Below, one piece after another: positions 43,907-59,365 of a DNA stretch of 64,000 nucleotides (positions within the stretch are counted from its first letter, which is position 1; every line of letters begins with the position of its first letter). The notes under the pieces were generated by a model. The model was given only the letters and a program-made list of their open reading frames with translations. It was not told the DNA's origin and made no database searches. The position numbers and the translations under genes were made by a program. Origin of the DNA: Myxococcota bacterium (GTDB lineage Bacteria > Myxococcota_A > UBA796 > JAJRTE01); contig JAJRTE010000082.1 in NCBI GenBank assembly GCA_024278455.1, positions 16,026-80,025 of the forward strand, given 5' to 3'.

Positions 43907-46900
43907 CTATCGTCCAACGGGATGCGGCGGCGAACCGGCCGGCGCTTCTCCAGTCATGTCCACAAGAACGAACGTGAGATCATCATCGAGGGGCACATCC
44001 CCCCTCGCGTCGTCGAGCGCGTCCGCAATGGCGGCCACCGCGTCGCGTGTGGCGAGGTCCCTGGTCGCGGCGAGCTGCTTGGACAGCTTCCGGATACCCA
44101 ACTGTCTGCCGTTCGGCAGCGTCAACTCCGGGAGCCCGTCCGTGTACATGAACAGTCGATCGCCGGGCTCGAGCTGCCGTTCGCGTACCCCGAGAGAGAA
44201 CGGGTCGTTGCCCAGGGCGGTTCCGGCGCAGGAGAGAGACAACACCTTGCCACTTCCGGTGAGAATGAGGAGTGCGGGTCCGCCGGCGTTGAACCAGCGC
44301 ATCTGGCCAGTCTTCGCATCGATTTCCACCGCGGACATCGTCATGTTGTACTTGCCCTGGCAGATGTCCTCGAGTTCCGCGTTGAGTTCCTCGAGAAGCG
44401 TTTCGATGGCGATGCCGGGCTCCCTTCGCCTGAGCGCCCGGTAGTGTGTGGCGGCCGAAGCGGTCAGCATGGCCGACGCCGCGCCGTGTCCGGTGACATC
44501 ACCGACCAGGACCACGATACGGTCGCCCGTCATGTCGTACCACCACCAGTCGCCGCTGCACTGCGCCGCGGGCCGGTAGAAGCCGTGGACCACGAACCTG
44601 GCGGTCCGGGCCGAGGCTTCTCGAGGCAGGAAGAAGGACTGGACCGCCGAGGTGAGGGCAAGGTCCTTTTCCATGGCCTTGCGCTCGAGTTCCACCTGCA
44701 CGAGCCGTCCTGTCTCCAGGGCGATGGCGATATGGTTGGCCAACGCGGTGAGGATCTCCAGGTCCTCTTCGGTGAACAGGCCTCGAGCCAGGCTGCTGTC
44801 CAGGTAGACGATCCCGATGAAACGTTCATCCATCGTGAGAGGTGCGGCGATGATGCTCTTCAGGCCATGAGCCACCACGCTTTCGGCCATGGAGAGTTCC
44901 CGTTCCGCGTCGCCGACCATGACAAGGGGTGAACCGGAGTCCCGCACCTTGTCCACGACCGTCGTGCTGTACGCGCCTTCGCCGATGATGTCCTGGCCTC
45001 GAGCGTCCCGGGCGCAGGCCACGGCCAGCTCCCCCTTGTCCTCGAGGAACAAGAAGCCCCGTTCGGCGCCGAGCACCTTCACGAGTTCATCCAGTGCGGC
45101 TCGCGCTCGCTCCTTGGGGTCCAGGCTCGACGACGACGCCACGCTGACCTGGAGTAGAGCATCGAGATACCGGGAAGTGGTGACCGCGCCTCCGGAGCTT
45201 CCCCCGATTTCGGTCCGGCCCGAGTGCACGGTACGGGTGGCGGCCAGGGTCGTGCCACCTCCAACCGGCTTCCTCGAGACGGCGTCGAATTCCGCCTCGA
45301 GACGTCCCAGCCGGGCCCGCCAGCCATGTTTCTCCGCAATGGCCAGTGCCGCCGCGGCGTGGCGCTGCTCAGCGCCGGCGTCCTCCCCTTGCCGGGCCAG
45401 CCTGGCACGCTCCAGGGCCACTTCGAACCGCCCCCACTCGCTGTCCGCATCCTCGGAAAGGGTCGCAGCCTGTTCCAACAGCTCCGCCGCAATCTTGACC
45501 TTCCCGGCGTCTCGAGCCAGTGCTGCCTGGATAATGAACCAGTGGCAATCGTTGTAGGACAGCTTCTCCACCATCTTCAGAAGCCGCAGCGCACGGTTCA
45601 CCCTCTCGAGAGCCTCGCCGTGGCTCTCCGCGGGAGCACGGAGGTATTGCCTGAGCCGGGCGTAGGCGATGAAAACGAACATCGGCCTGGGGTGCGCCGG
45701 CACGTGCCCGGGAGGAATCGCGTAGGACTCCCAGGTCTCGATCAGCTCCTCAAGCCCGGCCCCGAGGTCGCCCCGCTCCACCATGCCGAACGCCAGGTAG
45801 GTCAGCATGATCGTCCGGGCCCACCGCTCCGCCTCTGGAAGCGCAGAAGCCATCTCGAGCGCTTCGTAGTGGAAGTGGGTCGCCTCGCGGGTCCGACCGA
45901 GAACCGACAGAATCGCCGCACGATAGGCGCGGGTCATGACCGACGAAGCCGTCAGGTGAGCCTGGTCGGCCTTTTGCATGCCCCGCCGGGCAACGGCTAG
46001 CGCCTCCCGCATGTACCCGCGCATCATCAAGTTGATGCAATAGTCGCTCACCGCCTTGTTGTAGTCTCGAGGATGCAGCCAGTTGTCGATGTCGGGCAAC
46101 GTCTGCAGCCATTGCTCCTCGGCCCGCTTGAAATCACCAAGGAAGTGCGCCGAAAAATTCGCCCACATCCGGCTGGCATGCAGCGTGGCCGGATCGCCCA
46201 TCTCTTCGGCCTGCTCGATGGCGCGACGCCCGTAGAACTCGGCGATGGAACGCTTCTTCAGGTTGGCCATGACCGCCCCGAACCAGCTCGACGTGGCGAC
46301 CGACTCGAGACTCGGCCCGAGCAAGTGGGCATACAGAAGCTGCCGGAGCGTCAGGAGCAGCATGGCCACCGGCTCGAAGGCATAGTACCGGATCTCTCCC
46401 GCTAGTTTGTAGATATGACAGAGGAGCTTGTGCTTCTCGCGCCGTTCGCCGCGCGAACTGCCGTAGCCGATGCGCAAGCGACGCAAGACCGCGGCTGCGA
46501 ACCAGGAGAGGAGCGCGCCGAAAACCTGCCTCGCCTTCGATGACGGATAGGGCTTCCCCAACGCGCCCAGGGCAAGCATGCATTCGTGCCACGCCGCGTC
46601 CAGATCCACCTCGTCCACGAACACCGAACCCGTGCTGGCATGAAGCCGCGCCGCCAGCATGGGGTCTCGCGTGTCCTGGAGCGCATTCCGGAAGTGATGG
46701 ATGGCGTCCCGGTTGCGCCCGACGCCTCGAGCCGCCTGCCCGAGCGCCTGCTCGAGCGCGGCCCTGTCGGCGCGGATGCTCTGTCCCTCCGGCGAGTCCA
46801 GCACGTTGCGAGCCGTGGAGAGGAAGGTGCACGCATCCCGGTAGGCATACCGAGCGAGCGTGAGGCGTCCTGCCTCGAGGTTCGTCTCGAAAACACGGTT

Positions 46901-49060
46901 CGGGTTCTTGCCCCAATCACCGAGAGCATAGTGCCGGGCGATGGCCAGAACCCGTTCCGGCGCATCCGAGTCCTCGGCATCGAGCGCTTCGCCGATCTTT
47001 TGATGTATCTCAGCCGACGTGGGTTCATCGAGCGCCGCGGCCAACGTCTCGCACAGACGGTCCTGCAGGAACATGTAGGTCTCGGCACCGGTTCGGGCGA
47101 CGAGGTTCGCGCCCGTCGCCTCCGCGATGGCACGATTCACAGGCTCCTCACCCATTCCGGCGACATCCACGAGCAGGTGGAGAGCGAAAGTCCTGCCGGC
47201 GAGAGCGGCGCGTTCGAGCACGCGTCGTGTCTCGGAACTCAGCGCCTCGAGCCGCCTGAGCGAGAGGTCGAACACGTCGGCGGGAAGGTGCAGGGACGCG
47301 AACCCGTCCATGTCGACGCGCCACTGGCCCTGGGCAGGGAGTATCAGCCCGGCGTCGACGGCGGTTCGGACGTACTCCTCCACGGCGAGGGGGTTTCCGT
47401 TCGTCGCCACGGCGAGCCGTTCCACGAACCGGCGTTCGACGATGTGGCCCCCGAGATGGCCTGCGATGAGTTCCGCCACGCCTTCCACGTCCACGGGTCC
47501 GAGCGCGAGGTGTCGTGCTGCCGGAAACGCGCCCAGGGACCCGGCGTGCCTCCCGCCGTCTGCCTCGGTCTCCGACCGAGCTGCGAGGACGAGGAGGATG
47601 GGCACCCGTTCCGCCGCGCTCGCTACCCTCGACAGCACTTCCCGGGACCCTTCGTCCAACCACTGGGCGTCATCCACGACGAAGAGCATCCGGCCGCTCT
47701 CCGCGGCCAGGTTGGCGACGAAGCGGGCCAGGGCGTCGTTGAACAGTTCACCTTCGAGCTGGGCCACGGCACCGGTGTCTCCAGCGGCACGGGCCATGGC
47801 GGGGGACAACGATTTCACGAGAGGGCCGAGTTCGCCCATCGATCGCTCGAGCAGGCGTCTTGTCGCCGTGTCGCCCTGTTCGATGCGTTGGAACAGGTCC
47901 TCGAGGCAGGTATCGAGAGCCTGCCGGAGGGCTCCGTAGGGCACGGCGTTCCCCCGGCTGCCTCTTGTCCGCAACACGAGCGCTCCGGACTCCGCGCAGG
48001 ACGCGATGCTCGAGAACTCCTGGCACAACCGGGTCTTGCCGCTGCCGACCTCGCCTTCGATCGCCAGGACCCGGCCGCGGCCAGAACCCGCCTCCTTCCA
48101 CAGGGTTCCGAAGGTCTCGAGTTCCTGCTCCCGTCCGGCCAGGGGCAGTATCCGACTCGGCGGCTCCGGACGGTCGTTCCGTCCGAGCACCGCGTCCCCC
48201 GCATCGGCGAACAGGGTCTCGAGTTCTTCCAGGCGTTCGAGGTCGGATATCAGCCCTTCCACCGACTGGTAGCGGTCGTCCGGGTCCTTGGCGAGCAGCC
48301 GGGCAACGATGGCAGACAGCGCGGGCCCGATGTCGTCGTTCAACGTGTGCAGCCTGGGAGGCACGACGGCAGCATGCTGGCGCAGGAGTTCTCCGAGGTC
48401 GTCGGCCAGGAAGGGGGGGGTTCCGGCGAGGCATTCGAACAGGATGACGCCGAGGGAGTAGAGGTCGGCGCGTCCATCGACGGGCCGCTTGAGCAGCCCT
48501 GCCTGCTCCGGAGCAGTGTAGAGGAACGTGCCCACGACCTCCTCTTCCCGGTGCCCCCCCTCCTCCCCCACTGCCCGGGTGGCGAGCCCGAAGTCGATGA
48601 GCCTTGGTGTTCCCTGAAGGTCGATGATGATGTTGGCGGGCTTGATATCCCGGTGGACGAGCCCGTGACGGTGAACCTCCCCCAACGCGCCTGCGATGGT
48701 CGATGCCAGGCCGACGACTCGAGAAGGGGGCACCGGACCGCGTGCCAGGACAGCCGAGAGTTCTTCTCCCTCCACGAGTTCCATCAGGAGATAGGGACTC
48801 CCGCGAAGGTCTCCCGCTTCGATCACCTTGACGAGACCGGGGTGGTCGAGCCGTGCCAGGACGACAGCCTCGCGGTAGAAGCGTCGCCTGATCGCGTCTC
48901 CATGGTCGTCGCCCGCTGCGCGCATTACCTTGAGCGCATAGGTGTGTCCGTCTCGAGAGGCCTGGTAGACCGTACTCATCGCGCCCCTGCCAAGCTCACA
49001 GCCCACCTGCAGACCCCGCACCGCTGGATCCACCTCACGCAACCTGGCTGCAGCAATCAT
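43907..49060 (-). CDS. giant signalling protein: Ser/Thr protein kinase, AAA/STAND ATPase, TPR-like region, GAF, PP2C (SpoIIE-type) phosphatase
   Basis: 1717 aa. Kinase: 'YALKVMR', catalytic loop 'HRDIKPANIII', 'IDFGLA', 'TAPEQ'. Walker A 'EGEVGSGKT'. The C-terminal region is GAF-like. PP2C motifs are 'LVGDVTGHGAASAM' and 'LFMYTDGLPE'. Its stop lies 8 bp from the PKS start codon on the same strand. Confidence 0.85.
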   Translation of the reverse strand: MIAAARLREVDPAVRGLQVGCELGRGAMSTVYQASRDGHTYALKVMRAAGDDHGDAIRRRFYREAVVLARLDHPGLVKVIEAGDLRGSPYLLMELVEGEELSAVLARGPVPPSRVVGLASTIAGALGEVHRHGLVHRDIKPANIIIDLQGTPRLIDFGLATRAVGEEGGHREEEVVGTFLYTAPEQAGLLKRPVDGRADLYSLGVILFECLAGTPPFLADDLGELLRQHAAVVPPRLHTLNDDIGPALSAIVARLLAKDPDDRYQSVEGLISDLERLEELETLFADAGDAVLGRNDRPEPPSRILPLAGREQELETFGTLWKEAGSGRGRVLAIEGEVGSGKTRLCQEFSSIASCAESGALVLRTRGSRGNAVPYGALRQALDTCLEDLFQRIEQGDTATRRLLERSMGELGPLVKSLSPAMARAAGDTGAVAQLEGELFNDALARFVANLAAESGRMLFVVDDAQWLDEGSREVLSRVASAAERVPILLVLAARSETEADGGRHAGSLGAFPAARHLALGPVDVEGVAELIAGHLGGHIVERRFVERLAVATNGNPLAVEEYVRTAVDAGLILPAQGQWRVDMDGFASLHLPADVFDLSLRRLEALSSETRRVLERAALAGRTFALHLLVDVAGMGEEPVNRAIAEATGANLVARTGAETYMFLQDRLCETLAAALDEPTSAEIHQKIGEALDAEDSDAPERVLAIARHYALGDWGKNPNRVFETNLEAGRLTLARYAYRDACTFLSTARNVLDSPEGQSIRADRAALEQALGQAARGVGRNRDAIHHFRNALQDTRDPMLAARLHASTGSVFVDEVDLDAAWHECMLALGALGKPYPSSKARQVFGALLSWFAAAVLRRLRIGYGSSRGERREKHKLLCHIYKLAGEIRYYAFEPVAMLLLTLRQLLYAHLLGPSLESVATSSWFGAVMANLKKRSIAEFYGRRAIEQAEEMGDPATLHASRMWANFSAHFLGDFKRAEEQWLQTLPDIDNWLHPRDYNKAVSDYCINLMMRGYMREALAVARRGMQKADQAHLTASSVMTRAYRAAILSVLGRTREATHFHYEALEMASALPEAERWARTIMLTYLAFGMVERGDLGAGLEELIETWESYAIPPGHVPAHPRPMFVFIAYARLRQYLRAPAESHGEALERVNRALRLLKMVEKLSYNDCHWFIIQAALARDAGKVKIAAELLEQAATLSEDADSEWGRFEVALERARLARQGEDAGAEQRHAAAALAIAEKHGWRARLGRLEAEFDAVSRKPVGGGTTLAATRTVHSGRTEIGGSSGGAVTTSRYLDALLQVSVASSSSLDPKERARAALDELVKVLGAERGFLFLEDKGELAVACARDARGQDIIGEGAYSTTVVDKVRDSGSPLVMVGDAERELSMAESVVAHGLKSIIAAPLTMDERFIGIVYLDSSLARGLFTEEDLEILTALANHIAIALETGRLVQVELERKAMEKDLALTSAVQSFFLPREASARTARFVVHGFYRPAAQCSGDWWWYDMTGDRIVVLVGDVTGHGAASAMLTASAATHYRALRRREPGIAIETLLEELNAELEDICQGKYNMTMSAVEIDAKTGQMRWFNAGGPALLILTGSGKVLSLSCAGTALGNDPFSLGVRERQLEPGDRLFMYTDGLPELTLPNGRQLGIRKLSKQLAATRDLATRDAVAAIADALDDARGDVPLDDDLTFVLVDMTGEAPAGSPPHPVGR

Positions 49061-49459
49061 GGTTCGCCCTTCCTGTTCCCGATTGGAATCGGCCCGGTAC
49101 GAGTGCGCACCGGCTCACGTCGATAGCACTTGCCCAAGAATCGGAGAGACAGGCGAAAAACTTGAATACTGGTCTGGCGCTGGGCACCGTGGCCGGCTCG
49201 AAAGACTAACAGGGCGGCGATACGCGGCAACCTTTCCGCTCAAGAGGACCACCAGGGTCGCCGAAGTGATAGGTGACGGAGCGGAAGCGACAGGCTTTCC
49301 CGCCTTCGCGACCCGTCACGTCGATGCCCAGGTACAAAGAAGCTGAACAGCTCTCGATTGTGCCGTCTCGGCCAAAAACATCGGCCCGACACGTGCCTGG
49401 CTCGTGCCGCGCCGATGTGACCATACTGCTCGCACCTCATCGCAGGGGAAGGAACCACC

Positions 49460-50461
49460 ATGAATGTTGACATGGACACCATCGTCAAGAAACCAGAAGC
49501 GGCGCCGGTTCTTGGCGCAAGCGGCATCGTGTTTGTGAACGGCAGCGCGAATCAACTACCGAATCTTCCTCGAGTTCTGAGACGTGTCGTTGGGAAAGTG
49601 GAGTTGCGGGGATCGATGGCAGAAGTCCGTGATTCCAATAGCAGTGAACTCGTGGCGGTGAACTTCGATAGCCTGACGGCAAAGGAGCGGGACGGCCTGA
49701 TCCGCGATTTCGCCTTCGGACCGGGAAGACCGACGCTGCTCCTCCTCTCCGAAGGACACGCGCGCGACTACCTGTCGCGACTGTTCGCCAACCACACCCT
49801 GACGAACATGCTGGTCGTCAACAACAGGAACGTCGATATCTGCGACTTCCTGGTGACCATCCGCAAGATTCTGAAGCAGGACATCTTCGGACTGGAGAAG
49901 TACTTCGTCTGGGGAACGAAGACCCACCGCCTGCTCCTCACCAGTTCCACGCAACGCGGGGACGTGCTGGACACCATCGAGGCCTACTGCCACGACCTCA
50001 ACATACCGCGCAGGCTCAGGAACCTGGTCGTCTCCGTCGCGGACGAGTTCGTCACCAACGCGCTCTACAACGCACCGGTCGACGAACAGGGAGGCCCCAG
50101 GCATGCGAGCCTGCCGCGGACCGAGGAGGTGACGCTCGCCGAGGGCGAAGTGATCGAGGTCAAGCTCTGCTGTGACGGTTGGAGATTCGGCATCGCCACG
50201 TCGGACCCCTTCGGAACCTTGACACCGGAACTCCTGCTCGACTACCTGGCGAAGTGCTTCACCAAGGAAGACTATCAACCCGACGAGAGCAAGGGAGGCG
50301 CCGGTCTCGGCTTCTATCACATCTTCGAAAGCTTGTCCCACTTCATCGTCAACATCGCCCCTGGCAAGCGCACGGAACTCATCGGGCTCCTGGACGTGAG
50401 CGGAAGCTACCGCACCTTCGCCCAGGCGGGCAAATCCTTCAACCTCTTCACGGGAGAATGA
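49460..50461 (+). CDS. pseudo-receiver domain plus GHKL (RsbW/SpoIIAB-like) serine-kinase/anti-sigma-factor-type domain protein
   Basis: GGAAGGA RBS. The N-terminal 170 aa has a receiver-like alternating pattern without an obvious phospho-Asp pocket. The C-terminus has an N-box-like 'ADEFVTNALYNA', a G1-like 'DGWRFGIATSDPFG' and a G2-like 'GGAGLGFYHIFE'. Confidence 0.55.
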   Translation: MNVDMDTIVKKPEAAPVLGASGIVFVNGSANQLPNLPRVLRRVVGKVELRGSMAEVRDSNSSELVAVNFDSLTAKERDGLIRDFAFGPGRPTLLLLSEGHARDYLSRLFANHTLTNMLVVNNRNVDICDFLVTIRKILKQDIFGLEKYFVWGTKTHRLLLTSSTQRGDVLDTIEAYCHDLNIPRRLRNLVVSVADEFVTNALYNAPVDEQGGPRHASLPRTEEVTLAEGEVIEVKLCCDGWRFGIATSDPFGTLTPELLLDYLAKCFTKEDYQPDESKGGAGLGFYHIFESLSHFIVNIAPGKRTELIGLLDVSGSYRTFAQAGKSFNLFTGE

Positions 50462-50937
50462 CGATGGGCCACCAGATGTCCTGGAAACGGATTCTCGTGG
50501 ACGGGCAGGAGCGAATCCAGTTGGAGGGCAGCATCTCCGAGCACACCGACTTCAGGTCACTCATCGAAGTCGCTTCCGATTCTCTCGCTCTCGACCTGGC
50601 CCACGTCGACCAGATCAACTCCTGCGGCGTGCGCGAGTGGATCAATTTCGTCAACGCACTAAGGGAGTTGGGAAAAAACCTCGAAATGCACCGCTGCTCG
50701 CCGGCCATCGTCCGGCAGCTCAACATGATCTCCAACTTCAGGGGTGACGGCAAGGTCCAGTCGGTTCTGGCCCCCTACTTCTGCGACGCCTGTGACAACG
50801 AGATGACACAGATCGTGGATCTGGCCGGTATCGAGTCGCCCCCCGAAATCGCCGAGACGCTCCCATGTCCGAACTGCGGCGAGGACATGGAATTCGACGA
50901 TCTCGTCGATAGCTACCTGGGCTTCCTGGGCCGATGA
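50458..50937 (+). CDS. STAS-domain (anti-sigma-factor-antagonist-like) protein with C-terminal Cys4 zinc ribbon
   Basis: ATGA overlap with the upstream gene. The STAS core is 'LALDLAHVDQINSCGVREWINFVNALRELGKNLEMHRCSPAIVRQL', with Ser at the position of the SpoIIAA phospho-Ser. The zinc ribbon is 'CDACDNE...CPNCGE'. Confidence 0.7.
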   Translation: MTMGHQMSWKRILVDGQERIQLEGSISEHTDFRSLIEVASDSLALDLAHVDQINSCGVREWINFVNALRELGKNLEMHRCSPAIVRQLNMISNFRGDGKVQSVLAPYFCDACDNEMTQIVDLAGIESPPEIAETLPCPNCGEDMEFDDLVDSYLGFLGR

Positions 50938-51959
50938 AACAGAAAGACCCACCCAGGTTGTCAAAGGAGATCAAGGCCATGGTCGATGCGTCCATGGACG
51001 CCGTGATGGTCTCGGACCTGGACCTCCGAGTCATCTACTACAACACGAATATGCTCGAACTGGCCGGTCTCCGCCCGCGCGAACTGCGCAGGGCACGCGC
51101 GCAGGGCATGTGCCACAACCACTTCGGCCTCGAGACGTGCGACGAGCCTGATGGATGCGTCGCCAGGCGTGCCATCGACAACAGGCGACACCTGCGCGTC
51201 GACGAGGTGCGGTGCGCGTCTCCCGCAGGGGACGAATCCAGGCGCCTGATCATCGTCGCCGTGCCCTTGCTCGACACCGAAGGGCACCCCTACGCCGTCC
51301 TGGAGCAGTACAGGGATGTCACCGCAGAAAGCCGGATGCAGGAGCACTACAAGAACCTGCTCAAAAAGGAGCGGGAGCGGCTGGAGCGGCTCGCGGCCGA
51401 GGTCGAGCAGCAGGCCACGCTGGCGAGAACCGACCCCCTGACCGGCGTCGCGAACCGTCGCTGGTTCGATGAAACGCTCGCCGCCGCCATCGACAAGGCC
51501 GTCCACACCAACGAACCGCTCGTCCTGCTCATGTTCGACCTCGACCACTTCAAGAAGGTCAACGATACTTACGGGCACCAGACCGGGGACGAGGTGCTCC
51601 GGCAGTTCGCCAACGTGCTCCGCCGCTGCACCCGTGCCGACGCGGACGTGGTGGCTCGAGTCGGTGGCGAGGAGTTCGCCGTGCTCATGCCGGGCTGCAC
51701 CCTGGACATGGCTGTCAAGGCCTACTGCCGGGTGAGGGAGCAGAACGCACGCACAGGACTACTGACCACCTGTAGCTGTGGCATCGCCTGCTTGCATATC
51801 GATGCCGACAATGCCTCCGGCCTGTTCAAGGCAGCCGACAGCGCGCTCTACGCATCCAAGGAGAACGGCCGCAACCGGGTGACCGTGGCTGCTGATCTCG
51901 ATGCATGTCCCCTTGCAGCGCCCGGCAAGGGCGAAGCGCTGTCCGCCGGCCCATTCTGA
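50934..51959 (+). CDS. PAS-GGDEF diguanylate cyclase
   Basis: ATGA overlap with the STAS gene. The N-terminal region is PAS-like. 'DPLTGVANRRWFDE' and 'RVGGEEFAVLMPG' form an intact GGEEF active site. 'DLDHFKKVNDTYGH' is the metal-binding region. Confidence 0.85.
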   Translation: MKQKDPPRLSKEIKAMVDASMDAVMVSDLDLRVIYYNTNMLELAGLRPRELRRARAQGMCHNHFGLETCDEPDGCVARRAIDNRRHLRVDEVRCASPAGDESRRLIIVAVPLLDTEGHPYAVLEQYRDVTAESRMQEHYKNLLKKERERLERLAAEVEQQATLARTDPLTGVANRRWFDETLAAAIDKAVHTNEPLVLLMFDLDHFKKVNDTYGHQTGDEVLRQFANVLRRCTRADADVVARVGGEEFAVLMPGCTLDMAVKAYCRVREQNARTGLLTTCSCGIACLHIDADNASGLFKAADSALYASKENGRNRVTVAADLDACPLAAPGKGEALSAGPF

Positions 51960-52039
51960 GCAACCTGCATTTTTTCACTTGATTATATGCCCATGGGGGT
52001 ATATGTTTCCTCTCACACACAAAGTCGATGGAGGTTTGC

Positions 52040-52339
52040 ATGCCAACGATAGAAGTGACGGACAAGGCCAGGGAAAAACTTCTGGAAGCCGTGAAGGACA
52101 AGGAGGGGCAGTACGTGCGGGTCCTGCTCGAGGGGATTGGGTGAGGCGGTCCCCGCCTGGGGATGGCTCTGGATGAGCTGCGTGACAACGACACCCGCAT
52201 CAAGGTCAACGGGATTGAACTCATCGTGAGAAAGGATCACGAGAGGTACGTGGACAACACGATCATCGACTACCAGGACTCCTACTGGGGCCGGGGACTC
52301 ACCATCCGCCCCAACTACTACGCGCGCTCCTGCTGCTGA
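52040..52339 (+). CDS. HesB/IscA-like Fe-S assembly-family selenoprotein; in-frame TGA at 52142-52144 read as selenocysteine
   Basis: GGAGG RBS 6 nt before the ATG. The translation 'MPTIEVTDKAREKLLEAVKDKEGQYVRVLLEGIG-U-GGPRLGMALDE...IKVNGIELIV...RSCC' aligns to IscA 'MSITLSDSAAARV...GLRLGVRTSGCSGMAY...'. The TGA sits at the conserved first Cys of the xGCSG motif, and the C-terminal 'SCC' corresponds to IscA's CGC. Both halves lack independent starts. Confidence 0.7.
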
Positions 52340-52438
52340 ACCGGTGAGAATCGAGTCCCCGCACCGGACCTGCCAGCGATCGAAACCCCGGCCCGCGACT
52401 GCGACGGCATCCCGTCTCCTGGTATCCTCCGCGCGGCG

Positions 52439-54031
52439 CTACCATCTCCCGCGCCGAGGACGCTGCACCTTGAAGACCAGGGCGTAGCAATCGCGGTCCG
52501 GTTCCACGATCCGTCCGATCAGTTCGAGTTCGAAGAACCGGGCCACCTTGACGGCTCGAGCGTGAATCGATCGTGAAGATGCCTGGTAGTTCTCCCGATC
52601 GTAGGCGAACAGGACGCACCCCCCTGAGCGGGCCTCGAGTTCCTTGCGTCTCGAGTCGTCGAACAGTTCGAAATGCGACGCGCGAATGGCCGTGTCGATG
52701 CAACCGCTTTCCGCTATCCACACGCAAGCGGAGTAGGCGTGCATGTCCAGGTCGTCCGTCTCCCGGAACCTGTGGTCGGCCAGGAAGAAGGTTTCTGCGG
52801 AGGCGTAGTAACGCTGCGCCACGTCCGACGTGTCCCTGAGCGCGGGCAGGAGAATCGCGAGGAACAGGCAGAGCACGGTCGACGGGGCGGCCCCTGCGCG
52901 CGCCCAGACCGGCCACCGGGTCCGGTTCGCCCTTTCGTCGGCGAATGCGTGGGCGGCGACCAGGCCGGCGCCTGCCAGCGACGCCAGGCAAAGGCGAACG
53001 ACGAGGGTGTGCCGGTAGCCGTAGTCGTCGAACAGGGCGAAGGCCAGGTGTTGGGAAGCAGCGGTCCCCAGGAAGAACAGGACCAGGCCGCGACGCCTGG
53101 GCCACACGGTCCAGATCGCCACGACCGCGACCCCGATGGCCACCAGGCCGGACGGCCGCGCGTAAGGAGAAAGAAAATCCAACATCAGCACCTGCCGGCG
53201 AAACATCGAGAGCAGGTAGGCGCTTCCCCCTCCGAGATGGGTCTGCTGTCCGAGGACGAGGTAGGCGGCCACCAGGATCGAGGGCAATGCCAGGGAAGCC
53301 CACCAACCGGTGTGGGAAAGCACGATCCGCCGGACAGCCGACAGGCGCCAGGCGAGCGGCACGGCGAGCAGCACGGCCTCCGGTCGAAGCGCCACGGCCG
53401 CGGCCCACCATCCCATCGCGCCCGCCATCGCGACCGGGCTCACCCTCCGAATCGCCCGCTCCAGCACGGCCAGCGCAGCGACGCTGCAAACGAAGGGTAG
53501 CAGGATATTGTAGGCCGAGCTGGACCAGAAACCGAGTACGGGGTCGGCGGCCAGCAAGGCACCGGCCCACAGACCCGCCTCCTCGTTCTCGGTCAGGTCG
53601 CACAGCCAGGACCAGACCAGAACGGAGATGAGCAGCGAGGCCAGAATGTGGAGCACGACCAGCCACCACCCACTTCCCCCGAAGACCGGGCCTATCCACC
53701 GATAAAGCTGCCGGAGCACGCCCGACGCCCGATAGGCGAAATCGGGTTCGGGCGACGCATGTCGCCACACGTCGAAATAGTCGGCCTCGTGCCCGTCGAA
53801 CACGTGGCTGGACAGGGCTGGAATGACCCCGGCCCGCACGCCCGCCGCGGCGACCACGATCAGCGCCAGGGCGACGAGGTGCCGGCGCGAAGTGCGCCGA
53901 AACGGCTCGAGCAGTATCCCCGCGGACAGCACGGTCAGCACGCCCAGGGCCAGCAGGTGCGCGGTCACGAGCGGCTCGAGGTGCGTCTCGATCAGGATCC
54001 TCACGGGTTGCAAGCGCTGGAACAGGTCCAT
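52439..54031 (-). CDS. polytopic membrane protein, GT-C-fold glycosyltransferase-like (ArnT/PMT-like, weak)
   Basis: 530 aa with more than 10 predicted TM helices across the N-terminal 400 aa and a soluble C-terminal domain. No diagnostic motif could be confirmed by eye. Confidence 0.55.
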   Translation of the reverse strand: MDLFQRLQPVRILIETHLEPLVTAHLLALGVLTVLSAGILLEPFRRTSRRHLVALALIVVAAAGVRAGVIPALSSHVFDGHEADYFDVWRHASPEPDFAYRASGVLRQLYRWIGPVFGGSGWWLVVLHILASLLISVLVWSWLCDLTENEEAGLWAGALLAADPVLGFWSSSAYNILLPFVCSVAALAVLERAIRRVSPVAMAGAMGWWAAAVALRPEAVLLAVPLAWRLSAVRRIVLSHTGWWASLALPSILVAAYLVLGQQTHLGGGSAYLLSMFRRQVLMLDFLSPYARPSGLVAIGVAVVAIWTVWPRRRGLVLFFLGTAASQHLAFALFDDYGYRHTLVVRLCLASLAGAGLVAAHAFADERANRTRWPVWARAGAAPSTVLCLFLAILLPALRDTSDVAQRYYASAETFFLADHRFRETDDLDMHAYSACVWIAESGCIDTAIRASHFELFDDSRRKELEARSGGCVLFAYDRENYQASSRSIHARAVKVARFFELELIGRIVEPDRDCYALVFKVQRPRRGRW

Positions 54032-54051
54032 TCGCGGCCTACCTGAAGTGG

Positions 54052-55725
54052 CTATGGAGGAGCGTGGCCGGCGCCACCTTCGCCCCGGCCGCCCGCACGG
54101 ACCCCGCCCGCACGGGAATCGAGGCCCAGTTCGTACAGGTGGGTACCTCCGACCACCTGGTGCACGGGATGAAACGGCTTCAGCACCGCCTCGAGGCGCG
54201 GGACATAGGCCGGGCTCGTCACGACATCATACATGACAATGGACACGCGGTCTCCCCGCCGCCGGTAGTGGTCGAGGAGAAACGACATTTCGGCGGGATA
54301 GATGTCCGTGAAGGTGTGCATCACCATGGTGCCGCAGGAAAACGGCTGGCCGAAGGCGTAGTTCACGTACTCGAAACCGAGGTCGAGGCCGTAGTATCGG
54401 CAGCGGCGCCATTTCGGGAGCGCGAGGTAGACCGGGTCCACGGCACGTTTGTCGTCGTCTCCGAAGAGGGGCGGTGCGATGAGCCACAGGACGTCTGGGG
54501 GAGGTTTCCGGGCAAGCGCTGCGCGAATGGCATGGGGCCGTCGTTCCGCTTGCGCGATCGTGGTCCGGGCCTCCCCGACTTCGCCCAGGGCGAAAGCGAC
54601 TTCCGTGGCACATACGAAGCCCAGCGCAAGCCATCCGAAAGAGGGCGACCGACCGGCCGGCGAGTCGCCACGGCCGAGGAACCCTCTTGCGGCCAGCACC
54701 AGGAACGGGCCAAGGCACGAGAGGTAGTAGGGATACTGTTCGGCCGAGGCCACCTGGACCACGATGAGGGCCGCGACGGCCGGCACGACGCCCAGGGCGG
54801 CGAACAAAGCGGTGGTCGCGCGAACCCGCCGTGGATCTTTCAATCCGTACCACGCCCCGGCCGCCGACGCCGCGACCAGCAGCAGAACGATCGCTGGCGG
54901 CCCGAACCTCTGTGTCATCACCTCGATCACCGACGACCACAACGCCAGGGGATGGATGGTCTCGTTCTGGTATGTCCCCGTCGAGGTCACCAGCGCCAGG
55001 ACGGGCGGTATCATGGGCGAACAGGCGACCGCCACCGCCAGGGCCGCGAGCGCGACCTGCCGGAGGTACCGCCGGCGGTGGATGCCCAGGAACACCAGGA
55101 ACTGCCCGCACACCAGGACGGCTACCAGGGCATGGGTGTACAGCCCGGCCACCATCGTGGCAATCCATCCGGCCAGGCGGCGCGTGTCCGGCCGGTGCAG
55201 CGCGCGGAGGAACGTCCACTGGCCCAGCGTGGCCACGAAGGTCAGGAGGGGGTAGTTGTTCACCTCGAGCGCATAGTGCGATTGGTAGACGGAAACGGCC
55301 ATGAGAGCGGCGGCGCCGAGACCGGTGCGATCTCCGTAGGCCTCGCGTCCGAGAAGGAAGGCCGCCACGACGGCGGCGGTAGAAAACACTCCGGACATGA
55401 GCAGGTAGCCCGCCGGCGCCCCCCAGGCATGGTAGAGAAACGCGAAGAGGATACTGTAGAGCGGCGGGTGCAGGCCGACGAAGGTCGTCAGCACGGCGTA
55501 CCAGTCGCCGGCCTCGAACGCGGACACGACAGGCTGATAGTAGGCGGCGTAGGCGAAGGTGATCTGGTTGAACCGCAGGTCGAACCGTATCCAGCGCAGG
55601 CAGGCACCGAGGAAGACCAGGAGCGCGAGGCCCAGCCACGTGAGCCGGGGGCCCGCCTGGTCCAGTGCGCGGCTCGGGACAGCCGCCGGCCGGCGCCCTG
55701 CCCCTGATGGTGTCTCGAGCGGCAT
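54052..55725 (-). CDS. GT-C family glycosyltransferase (GT39/GT83, ArnT/PMT-like)
   Basis: Polytopic protein. The first periplasmic loop 'FEAGDWYAVLTTFVGLHPPLYSILFAFLYHAWG' resembles the ArnT/PMT '...KPPLlYW' signature. It has about 11 TM helices and a C-terminal soluble domain. Confidence 0.65.
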   Translation of the reverse strand: MPLETPSGAGRRPAAVPSRALDQAGPRLTWLGLALLVFLGACLRWIRFDLRFNQITFAYAAYYQPVVSAFEAGDWYAVLTTFVGLHPPLYSILFAFLYHAWGAPAGYLLMSGVFSTAAVVAAFLLGREAYGDRTGLGAAALMAVSVYQSHYALEVNNYPLLTFVATLGQWTFLRALHRPDTRRLAGWIATMVAGLYTHALVAVLVCGQFLVFLGIHRRRYLRQVALAALAVAVACSPMIPPVLALVTSTGTYQNETIHPLALWSSVIEVMTQRFGPPAIVLLLVAASAAGAWYGLKDPRRVRATTALFAALGVVPAVAALIVVQVASAEQYPYYLSCLGPFLVLAARGFLGRGDSPAGRSPSFGWLALGFVCATEVAFALGEVGEARTTIAQAERRPHAIRAALARKPPPDVLWLIAPPLFGDDDKRAVDPVYLALPKWRRCRYYGLDLGFEYVNYAFGQPFSCGTMVMHTFTDIYPAEMSFLLDHYRRRGDRVSIVMYDVVTSPAYVPRLEAVLKPFHPVHQVVGGTHLYELGLDSRAGGVRAGGRGEGGAGHAPP

Positions 55726-55791
55726 CGCGGTCCAACGACCTCCCTGGTCCCCGGGCTTCGCCGTCCCGCCGGCAGGTGGGAGGGACGGCGT

Positions 55792-58700: not shown

Positions 58701-58977
58701 CGACGGTGGCGTAGAAGCTGTCCACCGGCTGCGGGCGAGCGGGGGGGCGGCGAGGCGGAACGGTCACGGGCGTCTCGCCGCACCCCGTCCAGGCCACGAC
58801 CGCCACGACCATCGCCAGGGCCGGCAACGCGCGGCACGTTGCGCCAAGGCCGGCAGGACGCCACCGGCGGGATGCCCGGAGCGGACCGGGCACCGGGTCC
58901 CGGCAGGGCTGGGCAACAAGATCAATCGTCGAACCCGGTGAGGCGGTTGTACACGTCACGGATCTCCCTAGTTTCAT
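55792..58977 (-). CDS. large lipoprotein with sulfatase-family (alkaline-phosphatase superfamily) hydrolase/transferase domain, Thr nucleophile type
   Basis: Start placed at 'MKLGRS...RRWRPAG...AMVVAVVAWTGC' (lipobox). The ORF-track start 59448 adds an Arg-rich extension. The central domain has 'VVMVVIDAVSLSHLSAYGY', 'AAPWTLPSFASFFTG' (no Cys/Ser-x-P-x-R, so probably not FGE-dependent) and 'IVTSDHGEELWEHGGYEHGH'. Confidence 0.65.
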   Translation of the reverse strand: MKLGRSVTCTTASPGSTIDLVAQPCRDPVPGPLRASRRWRPAGLGATCRALPALAMVVAVVAWTGCGETPVTVPPRRPPARPQPVDSFYATVAGAAIDGAAARVVANPEAERVTTLLSLDFEDGTLQGLSPLQEDGRSKRGTNKDRPPKNPGKKLKSVSRVVGLGNAAHVLHIGGGVSGPASFRSEAIPIDPGTSYTVSYRVRTRDLKGRNGSRYRFGTVEALFYGVPDHYHDATRHLRSAANRKRCRKRSKQPAAGPNETGTVDWVTHSFHFTAPDKANRVVLSIDHSRGMSDRGVGFTTSGEVWFDDIRLVARGPSVGTKYANPDDLDASSSPLQLRVELPAEDHGAETRYALYAPAPSVLRFTRTIPPSAFLSLATGVVREGWVRERGDVRFTVTVVDAGGERHRVLEATHDPGGTLEDRYWHAHLVDLGDFAGQKVTIELETSADPAFQDDYPGAAAVWGDPVLFSRDGQGRLVVMVVIDAVSLSHLSAYGYERRTTPHLERIGAQGVVFEQAYTAAPWTLPSFASFFTGIDPVHHGAGERAWRELIWRRPLPERFVTLAEALRAAGFQTMALMNNPYLTSAFGLGQGFTTYRDYGVGTRTGSGKVGVDRAIDWLETHRGYDRFLVVHLMDCHGPYRPPRSYATRFVSGDYEGRFEKGMNGKDYLDLAQGDAPARDELEKQQVRDLYDGALLYADTMMGRLYDYVEANAGTADVTFIVTSDHGEELWEHGGYEHGHQAYQELIRVPLVMINPAAFDGGRRIAAPVRLNDLVPTILDLAGVEPLTGIQGISLRPLLENKPAGWPMDREIHAENELYGSAQAALVKGNLKYLYNMANSSPQERRPRSKARHELYDLSADPGETHSIAQTRPQELRELHRLMDSHLRTMLAGRYVLVLDGGGQTRRFKGSLALPGQRRWFVYYEDIIAPLPDGSQGAFKVANRRDKLEFDVTTPRAVLAFRTDGTLRAGEGAVTLELDVDGEPWRGGVRTPRGGVAGNGELTITCDDSVLVAAPEALPDPGDDGVAVFLARTSERSLGAGQNKVLSDDTVERLRALGYMK

Positions 58978-59365
58978 GGCTCGCTCTTTCGGAATCGGCG
59001 CAGCGGCCTGCCCGGCGAGCGTCTCCTGGTCGCAGCCGGCAGGTCCCCGATGTCGCTTTCGTCTTGCCCTCCGGGCGCCCGCGAACCGCCGGCAACGTCG
59101 CACGGACTGGTCTCTGGACCGGGCCCCGGCGATGGAGCGCCCGCCAACTGTTGTTTCCCAGGCGTTGAAGTGTAGCAGAGCCGCCACGCTTTCCAAAGCG
59201 CATTCGAATGGAGGGAAAACGGGCCAACAGCACCGCGGGCGACCTTTTCTGTTGCCAAGGTGCGGGAAAGCGGGTATAGACCGCCACCATTCGATAATCC
59301 CTCCGGCACGGGACCCCGACAGGCACCGCCCTTGGGTACGTATCCCACCGGCTCGAGACGACGAT

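What the first reader, a model, noticed from the sequence alone, without database searches (positions are those of the whole stretch)
49460..51959. Partner-switch-like three-gene operon feeding a diguanylate cyclase
Three plus-strand genes overlap by ATGA at 50458-50461 and 50934-50937. The first encodes a protein with a degenerate receiver-like N-domain and a C-terminal RsbW/SpoIIAB-type GHKL serine-kinase domain. The second is a STAS (SpoIIAA-like) protein with a conserved Ser at the phospho-site and an added Cys4 zinc ribbon. The third is a PAS-GGDEF cyclase with an intact GGEEF site. This is the logic of partner-switching modules, here apparently wired to c-di-GMP synthesis. It is analogous in principle to SiaABCD but uses a STAS target rather than DUF1987, and the zinc-ribbon STAS is unusual.
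Basis: partly seen in the sequence, partly recalled or inferred. Interest (0 to 1): 0.55.

Follow-up and report, generated by a model that had tools for sequence, protein, structure and literature searches.

The report
Kinase–STAS switch wired to c-di-GMP synthesis
Three tightly packed genes, plus a phosphatase inside the giant gene next door, look like a phosphorylation-driven protein switch that controls an enzyme making the bacterial signal c-di-GMP; the logic is already known from other bacteria, but the parts belong to large uncharacterised myxobacterial families.

Summary
Three co-directional, tightly abutting genes sit at 49460-51959. ORF1 gets no Pfam hit, but its confident predicted structure is a degenerate receiver domain fused to a SpoIIAB/RsbW-type GHKL domain, and all ATP-binding motifs are invariant. 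ORF2 has a STAS fold; its invariant Ser55 aligns with the phospho-serine of RsbV and TM1442, and it carries an invariant Cys4 zinc ribbon. ORF3 is a PAS-GGDEF protein with an intact GGEEF motif.

The divergent 1717-aa neighbour (43907-49060) is Ser/Thr kinase–AAA_16–GAF–SpoIIE(PP2C). It stays next to the module in relatives, in several different orientations.

In 57 related Myxococcota loci with adequate flanks, 37 have the STAS-zinc-ribbon gene directly downstream. Of those, 22 also have an adjacent GGDEF gene (PAS-GGDEF, PAS-GGDEF-EAL or REC-GGDEF-EAL). None of the 20 loci without the STAS does. Background is 0.02 GGDEF hits per 4 kb. Other relatives fuse the STAS-zinc-ribbon to Ser/Thr kinase, PDZ or PilZ domains.

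STAS partner switches that control diguanylate cyclases are already known (HsbA–HsbD, BgrV–BgrR; SiaABCD is analogous). This is therefore a new variant of a known kind, built from uncurated families. Every biochemical step is inferred.

The parts
43907..49060 (-). Divergent 1717-aa signalling protein: Ser/Thr kinase (residues 19-266; nt 48263-49006), AAA_16 NTPase domain, GAF (nt 44717-45121) and C-terminal SpoIIE/PP2C phosphatase (residues 1512-1701; nt 43958-44527). It is the candidate phosphatase of the switch.
   Evidence: Pfam: Pkinase 4.9e-43, AAA_16 1.5e-22, GAF 9.9e-17, SpoIIE 6.5e-32. PPM-type motifs SGDWW, GDVTGHG, YTDG and DDDLT can be read in the translation. Orthologous giant genes lie beside the module in L001/L080, L002, L003, L007, L018, L010, L016, L017, L036, L054 and L086, in different orientations.
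49061..49459 (.). A 399-bp divergent intergenic region between the giant gene and ORF1. It is presumed to be a shared regulatory region.
   Evidence: Its position follows from the ORF coordinates. No sigma-70-like promoter and no Rfam family were found. Its function is inferred only.
49460..50461 (+). ORF1, 333 aa: a degenerate receiver-like domain (about residues 20-125), a conserved linker (T133, K136, F143, G144, Y148) and a RsbW/SpoIIAB-type GHKL domain (about residues 155-333). It is the predicted serine kinase of ORF2.
   Evidence: Model pLDDT 85.9, pTM 0.87. Foldseek hits: LvrC 3e-7, SpoIIAB 6e-6, RsbW TM-score (target-normalised) 0.71-0.83, SiaB 0.016, and receiver domains at about 0.7. 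E196, N200, D249, F251, G252, G280-A-G-x-G284 and T305 are invariant in 41 of 41 sequences. D70 is kept in 39 of 41, but there is no beta-5 lysine and the window protein has N27/S29 in place of the acidic pair. There is no Pfam hit for the window protein; HATPase_c_2 is sub-threshold in 18 of 41 relatives.
50464..50937 (+). ORF2, 157 aa (159 aa if started at 50458): STAS domain with the predicted phospho-acceptor Ser55 (nt 50620-50622), plus a C-terminal Cys4 zinc ribbon (C109/C112/C137/C140; nt 50782-50877).
   Evidence: Model pLDDT 95.3. All top fold hits are STAS antagonists: 4hyl, SpoIIAA 1tid_B, TM1442 and RsbV. The profile alignment places N-S55-C-G on the D-S-x-G of TM1442 and RsbV. Ser55 is kept in 57 of 57 copies and the Cys4 set in 55 of 57. 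The two CxxC knuckles sit at the turns of two predicted beta-hairpins.
50934..51959 (+). ORF3, 341 aa: PAS domain (residues 12-133) with an invariant Cys/His cluster (C60, H61, C69, C75; nt 51111-51158), a short coiled linker, and a GGDEF diguanylate cyclase domain (residues 164-315) with GGEEF at nt 51663-51677.
   Evidence: Pfam GGDEF 8.4e-45, PAS_4 7.8e-09. NCBIfam diguanylate cyclase models also match. An eight-ortholog alignment shows invariant GGEEF and an invariant PAS Cys/His cluster. The I-site reads RADAD in the window rather than the canonical RxxD.
51984..52005 (+). A weak terminator-like hairpin followed by a T-rich tail, 25 nt after the ORF3 stop. It may mark the end of the operon.
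   Evidence: Consensus scan. One site was found against 2.7 expected in shuffles, so this is not significant on its own.

Best explanation
This is a four-component phospho-switch of the partner-switching type, and its output is c-di-GMP synthesis.

- ORF1 (degenerate receiver plus RsbW/SpoIIAB-like GHKL domain) binds ATP and phosphorylates ORF2 on Ser55, the canonical STAS site at the N-terminus of helix alpha-2.
- The PP2C/SpoIIE domain at the C-terminus of the divergent giant Ser/Thr-kinase–AAA_16–GAF protein removes that phosphate, in response to whatever the giant protein's sensory domains integrate.
- The phosphorylation state of the STAS-zinc-ribbon protein decides its binding partner: either the kinase, or the PAS-GGDEF enzyme ORF3, whose cyclase activity it thereby switches. 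This mirrors HsbA-P/HsbD, BgrV/BgrR and SiaC/SiaD. The zinc ribbon is proposed to be the added surface that contacts the output.

Shown here: gene order, folds, catalytic and phospho-site motifs, and co-conservation of the four components. Inferred: phosphorylation, dephosphorylation, which phospho-form binds ORF3, and whether binding activates or inhibits the cyclase.
For: - ORF1 fold matches SpoIIAB, RsbW, UsfX and SiaB, and its ATP-binding motifs are invariant.
- ORF2 fold is STAS, with Ser55 aligned to the RsbV/TM1442 phospho-site and kept in 57 of 57 standalone and 18 of 18 fused first copies.
- ORF1 and ORF2 homologs are adjacent in 43 of 72 loci with enough downstream sequence.
- A GGDEF gene is adjacent in 22 of 37 STAS-containing loci and in 0 of 20 loci without STAS; background is 3 hits in 604 kb. 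Three different GGDEF architectures and two orientations occur, which argues for functional rather than historical linkage.
- A SpoIIE/PP2C gene neighbours the module in rearranged positions.
- STAS-zinc-ribbon domains are fused in cis to output domains (Pkinase, PDZ, PilZ), while ORF1 homologs stay separate and sit directly after those fusion genes. This points to the STAS-zinc-ribbon as the element that talks to outputs.
- Experimental precedent: phospho-HsbA binds the cyclase HsbD (PMC5085249); BgrV/BgrR and SiaABCD behave analogously (PMC8457831).
Against: - No biochemical data exist for any component.
- The window ORF1 gets no Pfam or NCBIfam hit, and ORF2 is below the STAS gathering score.
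- 15 of the 37 STAS-containing loci have no adjacent GGDEF gene. Some keep only ORF1, STAS and the giant kinase/phosphatase (L010, L016, L017), so the cyclase is one of several outputs and not a core part.
- A sub-branch of the ORF1 superfamily has no STAS partner at all; it sits between a binding-protein-like gene and an Omp85-like gene.
- The giant protein also carries an active-looking Ser/Thr kinase that could act on the same targets.
- Which protein contacts ORF3 cannot be determined with these tools.
Confidence: 0.6

Rival explanations
1. Classical polarity. ORF1 itself binds and inhibits the PAS-GGDEF enzyme, as an anti-sigma factor holds its sigma factor. Unphosphorylated STAS-zinc-ribbon releases the enzyme by capturing ORF1, so the STAS protein never touches the cyclase.
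For: ORF1's closest folds are anti-sigma factors that sequester a partner (SpoIIAB, RsbW, LvrC). This is the textbook partner-switch logic. ORF1 has an extra receiver-like domain and a highly conserved linker (T133, K136, F143, G144, Y148 invariant) that could be a docking surface.
Against: In the described cyclase-controlling switches, the STAS or STAS-like protein contacts the cyclase. STAS-zinc-ribbon, not ORF1, is the domain found fused to output domains.
Confidence: 0.17
2. The real partner of the ORF1/STAS pair is the giant Ser/Thr-kinase/PP2C protein, or Ser/Thr kinases in general. The module tunes Hanks-type kinase signalling, and the GGDEF gene is a co-transcribed downstream effector or an unrelated passenger with no direct protein contact.
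For: Loci L010, L016, L017 and L086 keep ORF1 and/or STAS next to the giant kinase/phosphatase without any GGDEF gene. Eleven or twelve loci carry STAS-zinc-ribbon x2::Pkinase fusions directly upstream of an ORF1 homolog.
Against: GGDEF adjacency is about 30-fold above background and is seen only when the STAS gene is present. It holds across three architectures and both orientations. In the closest clade the cyclase gene lies between the STAS gene and the giant gene in one operon.
Confidence: 0.13
3. ORF1 is a true anti-sigma factor, like LvrC, for a sigma factor encoded elsewhere, and ORF2 is its antagonist. The cyclase gene is only a neighbour.
For: The top full-length structural match is LvrC, a Rec-Bergerat protein proposed to be an anti-sigma factor.
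Against: No sigma-factor gene appears in the Pfam-annotated neighbourhoods L080, L082 or L084. L086 has two ECF-type sigma genes 3-7 kb away, separated from the module by ATP-synthase genes. This reading does not explain the GGDEF enrichment.
Confidence: 0.05
4. There is no phosphorylation cycle. ORF1 is an ATP-binding pseudokinase or scaffold, and the STAS-zinc-ribbon is a ligand-, metal- or redox-sensing adaptor that acts through its cysteines.
For: The module has many conserved cysteines: the Cys4 ribbon plus C56 and C80 in ORF2, and the C60/H61/C69/C75 cluster in the ORF3 PAS domain. Many STAS proteins are never phosphorylated; for example MlaB and SLC26 STAS domains appear among the fold hits.
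Against: Ser55 is invariant at the exact phospho-site and all ATP-binding and catalytic GHKL residues are invariant. A PP2C gene is recurrently present, which has no role without a phospho-substrate.
Confidence: 0.05

Closest known systems
HptB–HsbR–HsbA–HsbD pathway of Pseudomonas aeruginosa (PMC5085249)
   Same: A STAS anti-sigma-antagonist-type protein with a phosphorylatable serine (Ser56) is cycled by an RsbW-type kinase and a PP2C phosphatase. Its phospho-form binds a GGDEF diguanylate cyclase. A receiver domain is attached to the kinase-bearing protein.
   Different: From my own knowledge, in HsbR the receiver, PP2C and kinase domains sit on one polypeptide and the receiver is a genuine phospho-acceptor fed by HptB. 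Here the kinase carries a degenerate receiver, and the PP2C sits on a separate 1717-aa Ser/Thr-kinase–AAA_16–GAF protein. HsbA has no zinc ribbon. The paper studied only HsbD's 'cytoplasmic DGC domain', whereas ORF3 is a PAS-GGDEF protein. No detectable sequence relationship beyond the shared folds was seen.
BgrU/BgrW/BgrV–BgrR system of Sinorhizobium meliloti (cited in PMC8457831)
   Same: A partner-switching system in which a STAS protein, depending on its phosphorylation state, controls the activity of a diguanylate cyclase.
   Different: Known to me only through the citation, and not compared at sequence level here. No zinc-ribbon STAS or giant kinase/PP2C protein is reported in that citation.
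SiaABCD of Pseudomonas aeruginosa (PMC8457831; SiaB–SiaC structure 6kko)
   Same: The logic is the same: PP2C (SiaA), GHKL-type kinase (SiaB), small phospho-target (SiaC) and diguanylate cyclase (SiaD). Unphosphorylated SiaC binds and activates SiaD. ORF1's C-terminal half matches SiaB structurally (E 0.016, TM-score normalised to target 0.55).
   Different: The target there is a DUF1987 protein phosphorylated on Thr68, not a STAS-zinc-ribbon with serine. SiaB lacks the receiver-like domain. SpoIIAB and RsbW match ORF1 much better than SiaB does.
LvrC of Leptospira (Rec–Bergerat response regulator, PDB 9qih; PMC13269768)
   Same: It is the best full-length structural match to ORF1 (E 3e-7): an N-terminal receiver domain joined to a RsbW-like Bergerat domain.
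   Different: LvrC has a canonical receiver phosphorylated on D53 by LvrB and is proposed to sequester a sigma factor. The ORF1 receiver lacks the beta-5 lysine and, in the window protein, the acidic pair. ORF1 is paired with a STAS substrate gene. The superposition is poor overall (RMSD 20 Å), so the two domains are oriented differently.
SpoIIAB–SpoIIAA–SpoIIE and RsbW–RsbV–RsbU partner switches of Bacillus
   Same: The three enzyme and substrate folds are the same (GHKL serine kinase, STAS with phospho-serine at the N-terminus of alpha-2, PPM phosphatase), and the genes are clustered.
   Different: The output here is not a sigma factor. The kinase has an added pseudo-receiver, the STAS has an added zinc ribbon, and the phosphatase is embedded in a giant Ser/Thr-kinase–AAA_16–GAF protein.
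Moorella thermoacetica stressosome (PDB 3ztb; summarised in PMC4976288)
   Same: A STAS/RsbT-kinase module whose downstream target is a diguanylate cyclase. Its STAS protein is among ORF2's fold hits.
   Different: As summarised, the RsbT-type kinase phosphorylates the cyclase directly and the STAS proteins form a large stressosome. Nothing here indicates a stressosome, since there is no RsbR/RsbS pair.

Membership tests
RsbW/SpoIIAB-type GHKL serine kinase (Pfam HATPase_c_2) | Bergerat ATP-binding fold resembling SpoIIAB/RsbW | tested here: met
   Foldseek hits: SpoIIAB 1l0o E 5.8e-6 (TM-score normalised to target 0.77) and RsbW 6m36/6m37 (0.71-0.83), using a model with pLDDT 85.9.
RsbW/SpoIIAB-type GHKL serine kinase (Pfam HATPase_c_2) | N-box Glu/Asn, G1 Asp and G2 glycine-rich ATP lid | tested here: met
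   E196, N200, D249-x-F-G252 and G280-A-G-x-G284 are invariant in 41 of 41 relatives. The correspondence to SpoIIAB residues rests on my own knowledge of the motifs.
RsbW/SpoIIAB-type GHKL serine kinase (Pfam HATPase_c_2) | Score above the curated threshold of the family HMM | tested here: not met
   There is no Pfam or NCBIfam hit at E<0.1 for the window protein. Eighteen of 41 relatives hit HATPase_c_2 only weakly (best E 0.0029). A family profile against PDB gives a histidine-kinase CA domain at E 0.011.
RsbW/SpoIIAB-type GHKL serine kinase (Pfam HATPase_c_2) | Phosphorylates a cognate STAS protein on serine | not testable with these tools
   Only adjacency of the ORF1 and STAS genes was shown (43 of 72 loci).
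STAS anti-sigma-factor antagonist (SpoIIAA/RsbV type) | STAS fold | tested here: met
   Model pLDDT 95.3. The top fold hits are 4hyl, SpoIIAA 1tid_B, TM1442 1vc1 and RsbV 6m36_B.
STAS anti-sigma-factor antagonist (SpoIIAA/RsbV type) | Score above the Pfam STAS gathering threshold | tested here: not met
   17.6 bits against a cut-off of 22.6. The STAS-only family profile against PDB gives TM1442 at E 9e-4.
STAS anti-sigma-factor antagonist (SpoIIAA/RsbV type) | Conserved phosphorylatable Ser/Thr at the start of helix alpha-2 (D-S-x-G motif) | tested here: met
   N54-S55-C-G57 aligns with the D-S-A-G of TM1442 and the D-S-T-G of RsbV. Ser55 lies at the beta-3/alpha-2 junction of the model. It is kept in 57 of 57 standalone and 18 of 18 fused first copies.
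STAS anti-sigma-factor antagonist (SpoIIAA/RsbV type) | Antagonises an anti-sigma factor to release a sigma factor | tested here: inconclusive
   No sigma-factor gene was found in neighbourhoods L080, L082 or L084. The recurrent neighbours are GGDEF, Pkinase and SpoIIE genes. An unlinked sigma factor cannot be excluded.
GGDEF diguanylate cyclase | GGDEF domain with an intact GG[DE]EF active site | tested here: met
   Pfam GGDEF 8.4e-45 and TIGR00254 9e-45. GGEEF lies at nt 51663-51677 and is invariant in 8 orthologs.
GGDEF diguanylate cyclase | RxxD inhibitory (I) site five residues upstream of GGDEF | tested here: not met
   The window and its closest ortholog read R-A-D-A/V-D, a one-residue insertion relative to the other orthologs. 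Three orthologs have canonical RxxD and three have RxxH. This site is not required for catalysis.
Partner-switching system (kinase + STAS + PP2C) | All three components are encoded together and co-conserved | tested here: met
   A SpoIIE domain is in the divergent neighbour (6.5e-32). The same giant gene, or a GAF-SpoIIE gene, lies beside the pair in at least 14 relatives in varied orientations. SpoIIE occurs within 10 kb in 21 of 57 loci.
Partner-switching system (kinase + STAS + PP2C) | The phosphatase retains its catalytic metal-binding aspartates | tested here: met
   The motifs SGDWW, GDVTGHG, YTDG and DDDLT are read directly from the translation. Assignment to PPM metal ligands rests on my own knowledge.
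STAS-controlled diguanylate cyclase switches (HsbA–HsbD, BgrV–BgrR) | Phospho-state-dependent physical interaction of the STAS protein with the cyclase | not testable with these tools
   Only genomic association was shown: 22 of 37 against 0 of 20 loci. The precedent is read from PMC5085249.
SiaABCD | The phospho-target is a DUF1987 protein (SiaC, Thr68) | tested here: not met
   The ORF2 fold matches are all STAS proteins, and the phospho-site is a serine in the STAS motif.
Rec–Bergerat response regulators (LvrC type) | Canonical receiver with an acidic pocket, phospho-acceptor Asp, Thr/Ser and beta-5 Lys | tested here: not met
   D70 (39 of 41) and S97 (30 of 41) are kept. No conserved lysine follows beta-5, and the window protein has N27/S29 at the acidic-pair positions. 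The two-domain architecture itself matches.

The most novel reading that the evidence does not exclude
The STAS-zinc-ribbon is a previously undescribed, very abundant regulatory domain: about 4,500 clusters at 50% identity, and no curated model covers the STAS-plus-ribbon unit. Together with its dedicated pseudo-receiver–GHKL kinase and a PP2C embedded in giant kinase–AAA_16–GAF proteins, it would form a general plug-in phospho-switch of Myxococcota and Bdellovibrionota. That switch would gate several output classes: c-di-GMP synthases and phosphodiesterases in trans, and Hanks-type Ser/Thr kinases, PDZ and PilZ domains in cis. The Cys4 ribbon and the conserved Cys/His cluster in the partner PAS domain could add metal or redox sensing to the phosphorylation switch. 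If so, the module would couple eukaryotic-like kinase networks directly to c-di-GMP signalling.
Probability: 0.25. Interest if true: 0.7.

Novelty: new variant of a known kind. Interest (0 to 1): 0.5.

Why it matters
Myxobacteria have some of the largest Ser/Thr-kinase and c-di-GMP repertoires known, but how these networks connect is poorly understood. This locus suggests a concrete and testable link. A giant Ser/Thr-kinase/PP2C sensor and a dedicated GHKL kinase would set the phosphorylation state of a small STAS-zinc-ribbon protein, which in turn controls c-di-GMP enzymes. The two protein families involved are widespread (489 ORF1 relatives among GTDB species representatives, about 4,500 STAS-zinc-ribbon clusters). 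Neither is covered by a curated family model above threshold, so defining them would improve annotation of many genomes. The principle of a STAS partner switch controlling a diguanylate cyclase is already established in Pseudomonas and Sinorhizobium, so the conceptual advance is moderate.

Tried and rejected
- Pfam and NCBIfam scans of ORF1 found nothing.
- A single-sequence search of ORF1 against PDB gave only noise.
- The ORF2 profile against PDB was dominated by spurious C2H2 zinc-finger hits caused by CxxC spacing. I rebuilt a STAS-only profile (A3) to see the real alignment.
The source organism is therefore only inferred to be Myxococcota, from its relatives.
- My GC3-based gene caller mis-called ORF2 because of the tight packing. 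I abandoned it and mapped HMM hits on stop-to-stop ORFs instead.
- The sigma-70 promoter scan found nothing and the single terminator-like hairpin is not above shuffles. Rfam found no riboswitch or other RNA in 48900-52500.
- The idea that PilZ fusions strongly tie the STAS-zinc-ribbon to c-di-GMP was downgraded: only 1 of the top 150 representatives has PilZ.
- The idea that every ORF1-family member pairs with a STAS was rejected: a sub-branch has binding-protein-like and Omp85-like neighbours instead.
- A SECIS-like hairpin after the in-frame TGA of the downstream HesB-like ORF is not significant (z = -0.94).

Full report
**1. Observation**

The window holds three + strand ORFs at 49460-50461 (333 aa), 50458-50937 and 50934-51959 (341 aa). 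ATGA tetranucleotides are present at 50458-50461 and 50934-50937.

The first overlap is probably not the real junction. A GGGAG Shine-Dalgarno-like sequence at 50452-50456 lies 1 nt from the ATG at 50458 but 7 nt from the ATG at 50464. The database copy of the protein is 157 aa. The 77%-identical ortholog starts its STAS gene 3 nt after the ORF1 stop. The genes are tightly coupled under either start.

**2. Domain identities**

ORF3 is clear: PAS_4 (7.8e-9) plus GGDEF (8.4e-45), with GGEEF at 51663-51677.

ORF2 reaches only 17.6 bits on Pfam STAS, below the cut-off of 22.6.
- With a 33-sequence alignment its AlphaFold model is very confident (pLDDT 95.3).
- Every top Foldseek hit is a STAS protein: Haliangium 4hyl, SpoIIAA, TM1442, RsbV.
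- A STAS-only family profile aligns the invariant N54-S55-C-G57 column for column with the D-S-x-G phospho-site motif of TM1442 and RsbV.
- Residues 100-157 form two predicted beta-hairpins, each with a CxxC knuckle (C109/C112 and C137/C140). This is a zinc-ribbon topology.

ORF1 has no Pfam or NCBIfam hit and no single-sequence PDB hit.
- Its model is confident (pLDDT 85.9, pTM 0.87).
- The C-terminal half superposes on SpoIIAB (E 6e-6), RsbW (TM-score normalised to target up to 0.83), UsfX and SiaB. The N-terminal half superposes on receiver domains.
- The best full-length match is LvrC, a recently solved Rec–Bergerat protein.
- In 41 relatives the N-box (E196, N200), G1 (D249-x-F-G252), G2 (G280-A-G-x-G284) and T305 are invariant.
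- The receiver-like domain keeps D70 and S97. It lacks the beta-5 lysine, and in the window protein N27/S29 replace the acidic pair, so it is degenerate.
- Across the family the only recurrent Pfam signals are sub-threshold HATPase_c_2 (18 of 41) and HATPase_c (12 of 41).

**3. The missing component**

The divergent neighbour at 43907-49060 encodes a 1717-aa protein: Pkinase–AAA_16–GAF–SpoIIE (SpoIIE 6.5e-32). PPM-type motifs SGDWW, GDVTGHG, YTDG and DDDLT can be read in its sequence. This supplies the PP2C phosphatase that a partner switch needs.

**4. Comparative evidence**

A degenerate-pattern scan of one genome per GTDB species found 489 relatives of ORF1, almost all in Myxococcota with a few in Bdellovibrionota. 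Seventy-nine loci were fetched. I mapped HMMs for ORF1, ORF2, GGDEF, SpoIIE and Pkinase onto them.

| Measure | Result |
|---|---|
| STAS-zinc-ribbon gene directly downstream of the ORF1 homolog | 43 of 72 loci with enough downstream sequence |
| Loci with at least 2.5 kb on both sides | 57 |
| Of those, with the downstream STAS gene | 37 |
| Of those 37, with an adjacent GGDEF gene | 22 |
| Adjacent GGDEF gene among the 20 without the STAS gene | 0 |
| Background GGDEF frequency in distal flanks | 3 hits in 604 kb (0.02 per 4 kb) |

The adjacent c-di-GMP enzymes are not all orthologs.
- Seven are co-directional PAS-GGDEF proteins orthologous to ORF3.
- Fifteen are divergent upstream genes. 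Those scanned with Pfam encode REC-GGDEF-EAL (about 920-950 aa; L038, L041, L044) or PAS-GGDEF-EAL (L054).
- Association across architectures and orientations argues for functional coupling.

The giant kinase/PP2C gene also moves but stays close.
- It is divergent upstream in the window and in L001/L080.
- It is the fourth co-directional gene in L002, L003, L007 and L018.
- It directly follows ORF1/STAS, with no GGDEF gene, in L010, L016, L017 and L086.
- It lies upstream in L036 and L054.
- Other loci have a shorter GAF-SpoIIE gene, for example convergent in L082.

A third group of 11-12 loci has a protein with two N-terminal STAS-zinc-ribbon domains fused to a Ser/Thr kinase. An ORF1 homolog follows it directly, and a further standalone STAS-zinc-ribbon gene follows that in roughly half of these loci.

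Ser55 is kept in 57 of 57 standalone domains and 18 of 18 first fused domains. The Cys4 ribbon is kept in at least 55 of 57.

An exhaustive profile search finds 4,526 STAS-zinc-ribbon representatives at 50% clustering. Among the top 150, six carry Pkinase, six PDZ and one PilZ.

A more distant ORF1 sub-branch has no STAS partner. It lies between a periplasmic-binding-like gene and an Omp85-like gene. The pairing therefore defines the window's clade, not the whole superfamily.

**5. Mechanism**

The best-supported reading is a four-part phospho-switch.
- ORF1 phosphorylates ORF2 on Ser55.
- The SpoIIE domain of the giant sensor protein reverses this.
- The phospho-state of the STAS-zinc-ribbon determines whether it engages ORF1 or the PAS-GGDEF enzyme, thereby setting c-di-GMP synthesis.

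The STAS-zinc-ribbon is the domain found covalently attached to output domains in paralogs, whereas ORF1 stays separate. I therefore favour the STAS protein, not the kinase, as the element that contacts the output. This matches the experimentally studied cases: phospho-HsbA binds HsbD, and BgrV controls BgrR and SiaC controls SiaD.

The folds, motifs and co-conservation are shown. Every biochemical step, and the sign of regulation, is inferred.

Rival readings cannot be excluded.
- ORF1 may sequester the cyclase, as an anti-sigma factor sequesters its sigma factor.
- The true target may be the giant kinase.
- ORF1 may hold an unlinked sigma factor.
- The STAS-zinc-ribbon may act as a non-phosphorylated redox or metal adaptor.

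**6. Comparison with known systems**

The logic is that of SpoIIAB/SpoIIAA/SpoIIE and RsbW/RsbV/RsbU. Its wiring to a diguanylate cyclase has precedent in HsbR-HsbA-HsbD, BgrUWV-R, SiaABCD and the Moorella stressosome.

The differences lie in the parts:
- a pseudo-receiver fused to the kinase (an LvrC-like architecture, but degenerate);
- a zinc ribbon fused to the STAS domain — no paper in the held library contained all three search terms ("STAS domain", "zinc ribbon", "anti-sigma factor antagonist"), and the top-ranked papers listed do not mention a zinc ribbon;
- a phosphatase embedded in a giant Ser/Thr-kinase–AAA_16–GAF protein;
- families that fall below curated HMM thresholds.

**7. Verdict**

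The finding is a new variant of a known kind of system. Interest is moderate at 0.5. The principle is established, but the module is widespread and uncharacterised, and it plausibly links Hanks-type kinase networks to c-di-GMP signalling in myxobacteria.

Noticed in passing
window 52040-52339 (+): A 98-codon ORF with a strong Shine-Dalgarno sequence (GGAGG at 52030-52034) has an in-frame TGA at 52142-52144 inside a G-x-GG motif. With Cys substituted at that position, the read-through product matches the IscA/HesB selenoprotein-type models NF038090 (8.8e-18, below its cut-off) and TIGR01911. It is a candidate HesB-like selenoprotein gene directly downstream of the PAS-GGDEF gene. The ortholog locus L080 has two small called genes (39 and 57 aa) at the same place, probably the same gene split at the TGA. 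A SECIS-like hairpin was not significant, and Rfam found nothing.
   Followed up: partly
window 51111-51158 (ORF3 residues 60-75): The PAS domain of the cyclase carries an invariant M-C60-H61-x-H-x5-C69-x(3-5)-C75 cluster in all 8 orthologs. This could be a metal, Fe-S or redox site; from memory, it is reminiscent of the Cys cluster in the NreB PAS domain. Together with the Cys4 ribbon, C56 and C80 of ORF2, and the neighbouring HesB-like gene, it hints at a metal or redox theme.
   Followed up: partly
L082:7851-10004; also L006, L008, L011, L014, L015, L017, L021, L024, L025, L028, L029, L035, L067: These are proteins of about 700 aa with two tandem STAS-zinc-ribbon domains fused to a Hanks-type Ser/Thr kinase, encoded directly upstream of (often overlapping) an ORF1 homolog. 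L021 carries three such fusion genes and two ORF1 homologs within 10 kb.
   Followed up: partly
P0293 (379 aa), P0295 (814 aa) and other representatives: STAS-zinc-ribbon domains are also fused to two PilZ domains (one case) and to PDZ domains (six cases) among the top 150 representatives. Most proteins of about 700-750 aa carry a C-terminal region of about 450 aa with no Pfam match.
   Followed up: partly
L061-L075 and L084 (e.g. L064:8794-12521): A distant sub-branch of the ORF1 family lacks any STAS partner. It is flanked by a conserved protein of about 315 aa with weak similarity to phosphonate-binding periplasmic proteins and by an Omp85/POTRA-like protein of about 550-610 aa. Several of these loci come from rumen or gut MAGs.
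   Followed up: partly
window 40001-43898 (-) and 52439-59448 (-): By synteny with the annotated ortholog locus L080, the region upstream of the giant kinase gene is a large hybrid NRPS/PKS gene. Downstream lie two large genes (530 and 557 aa here; one ortholog has a weak PMT_2 match) and a sulfatase-family gene of about 1,000-1,200 aa.
   Followed up: no
L001 / L004 / L063 record titles: Several MAG contigs that carry this Myxococcota-type module are labelled 'Gammaproteobacteria', 'Bifidobacterium breve' or 'Bacteroidaceae' in their records. These are probably binning or taxonomy errors.
   Followed up: no
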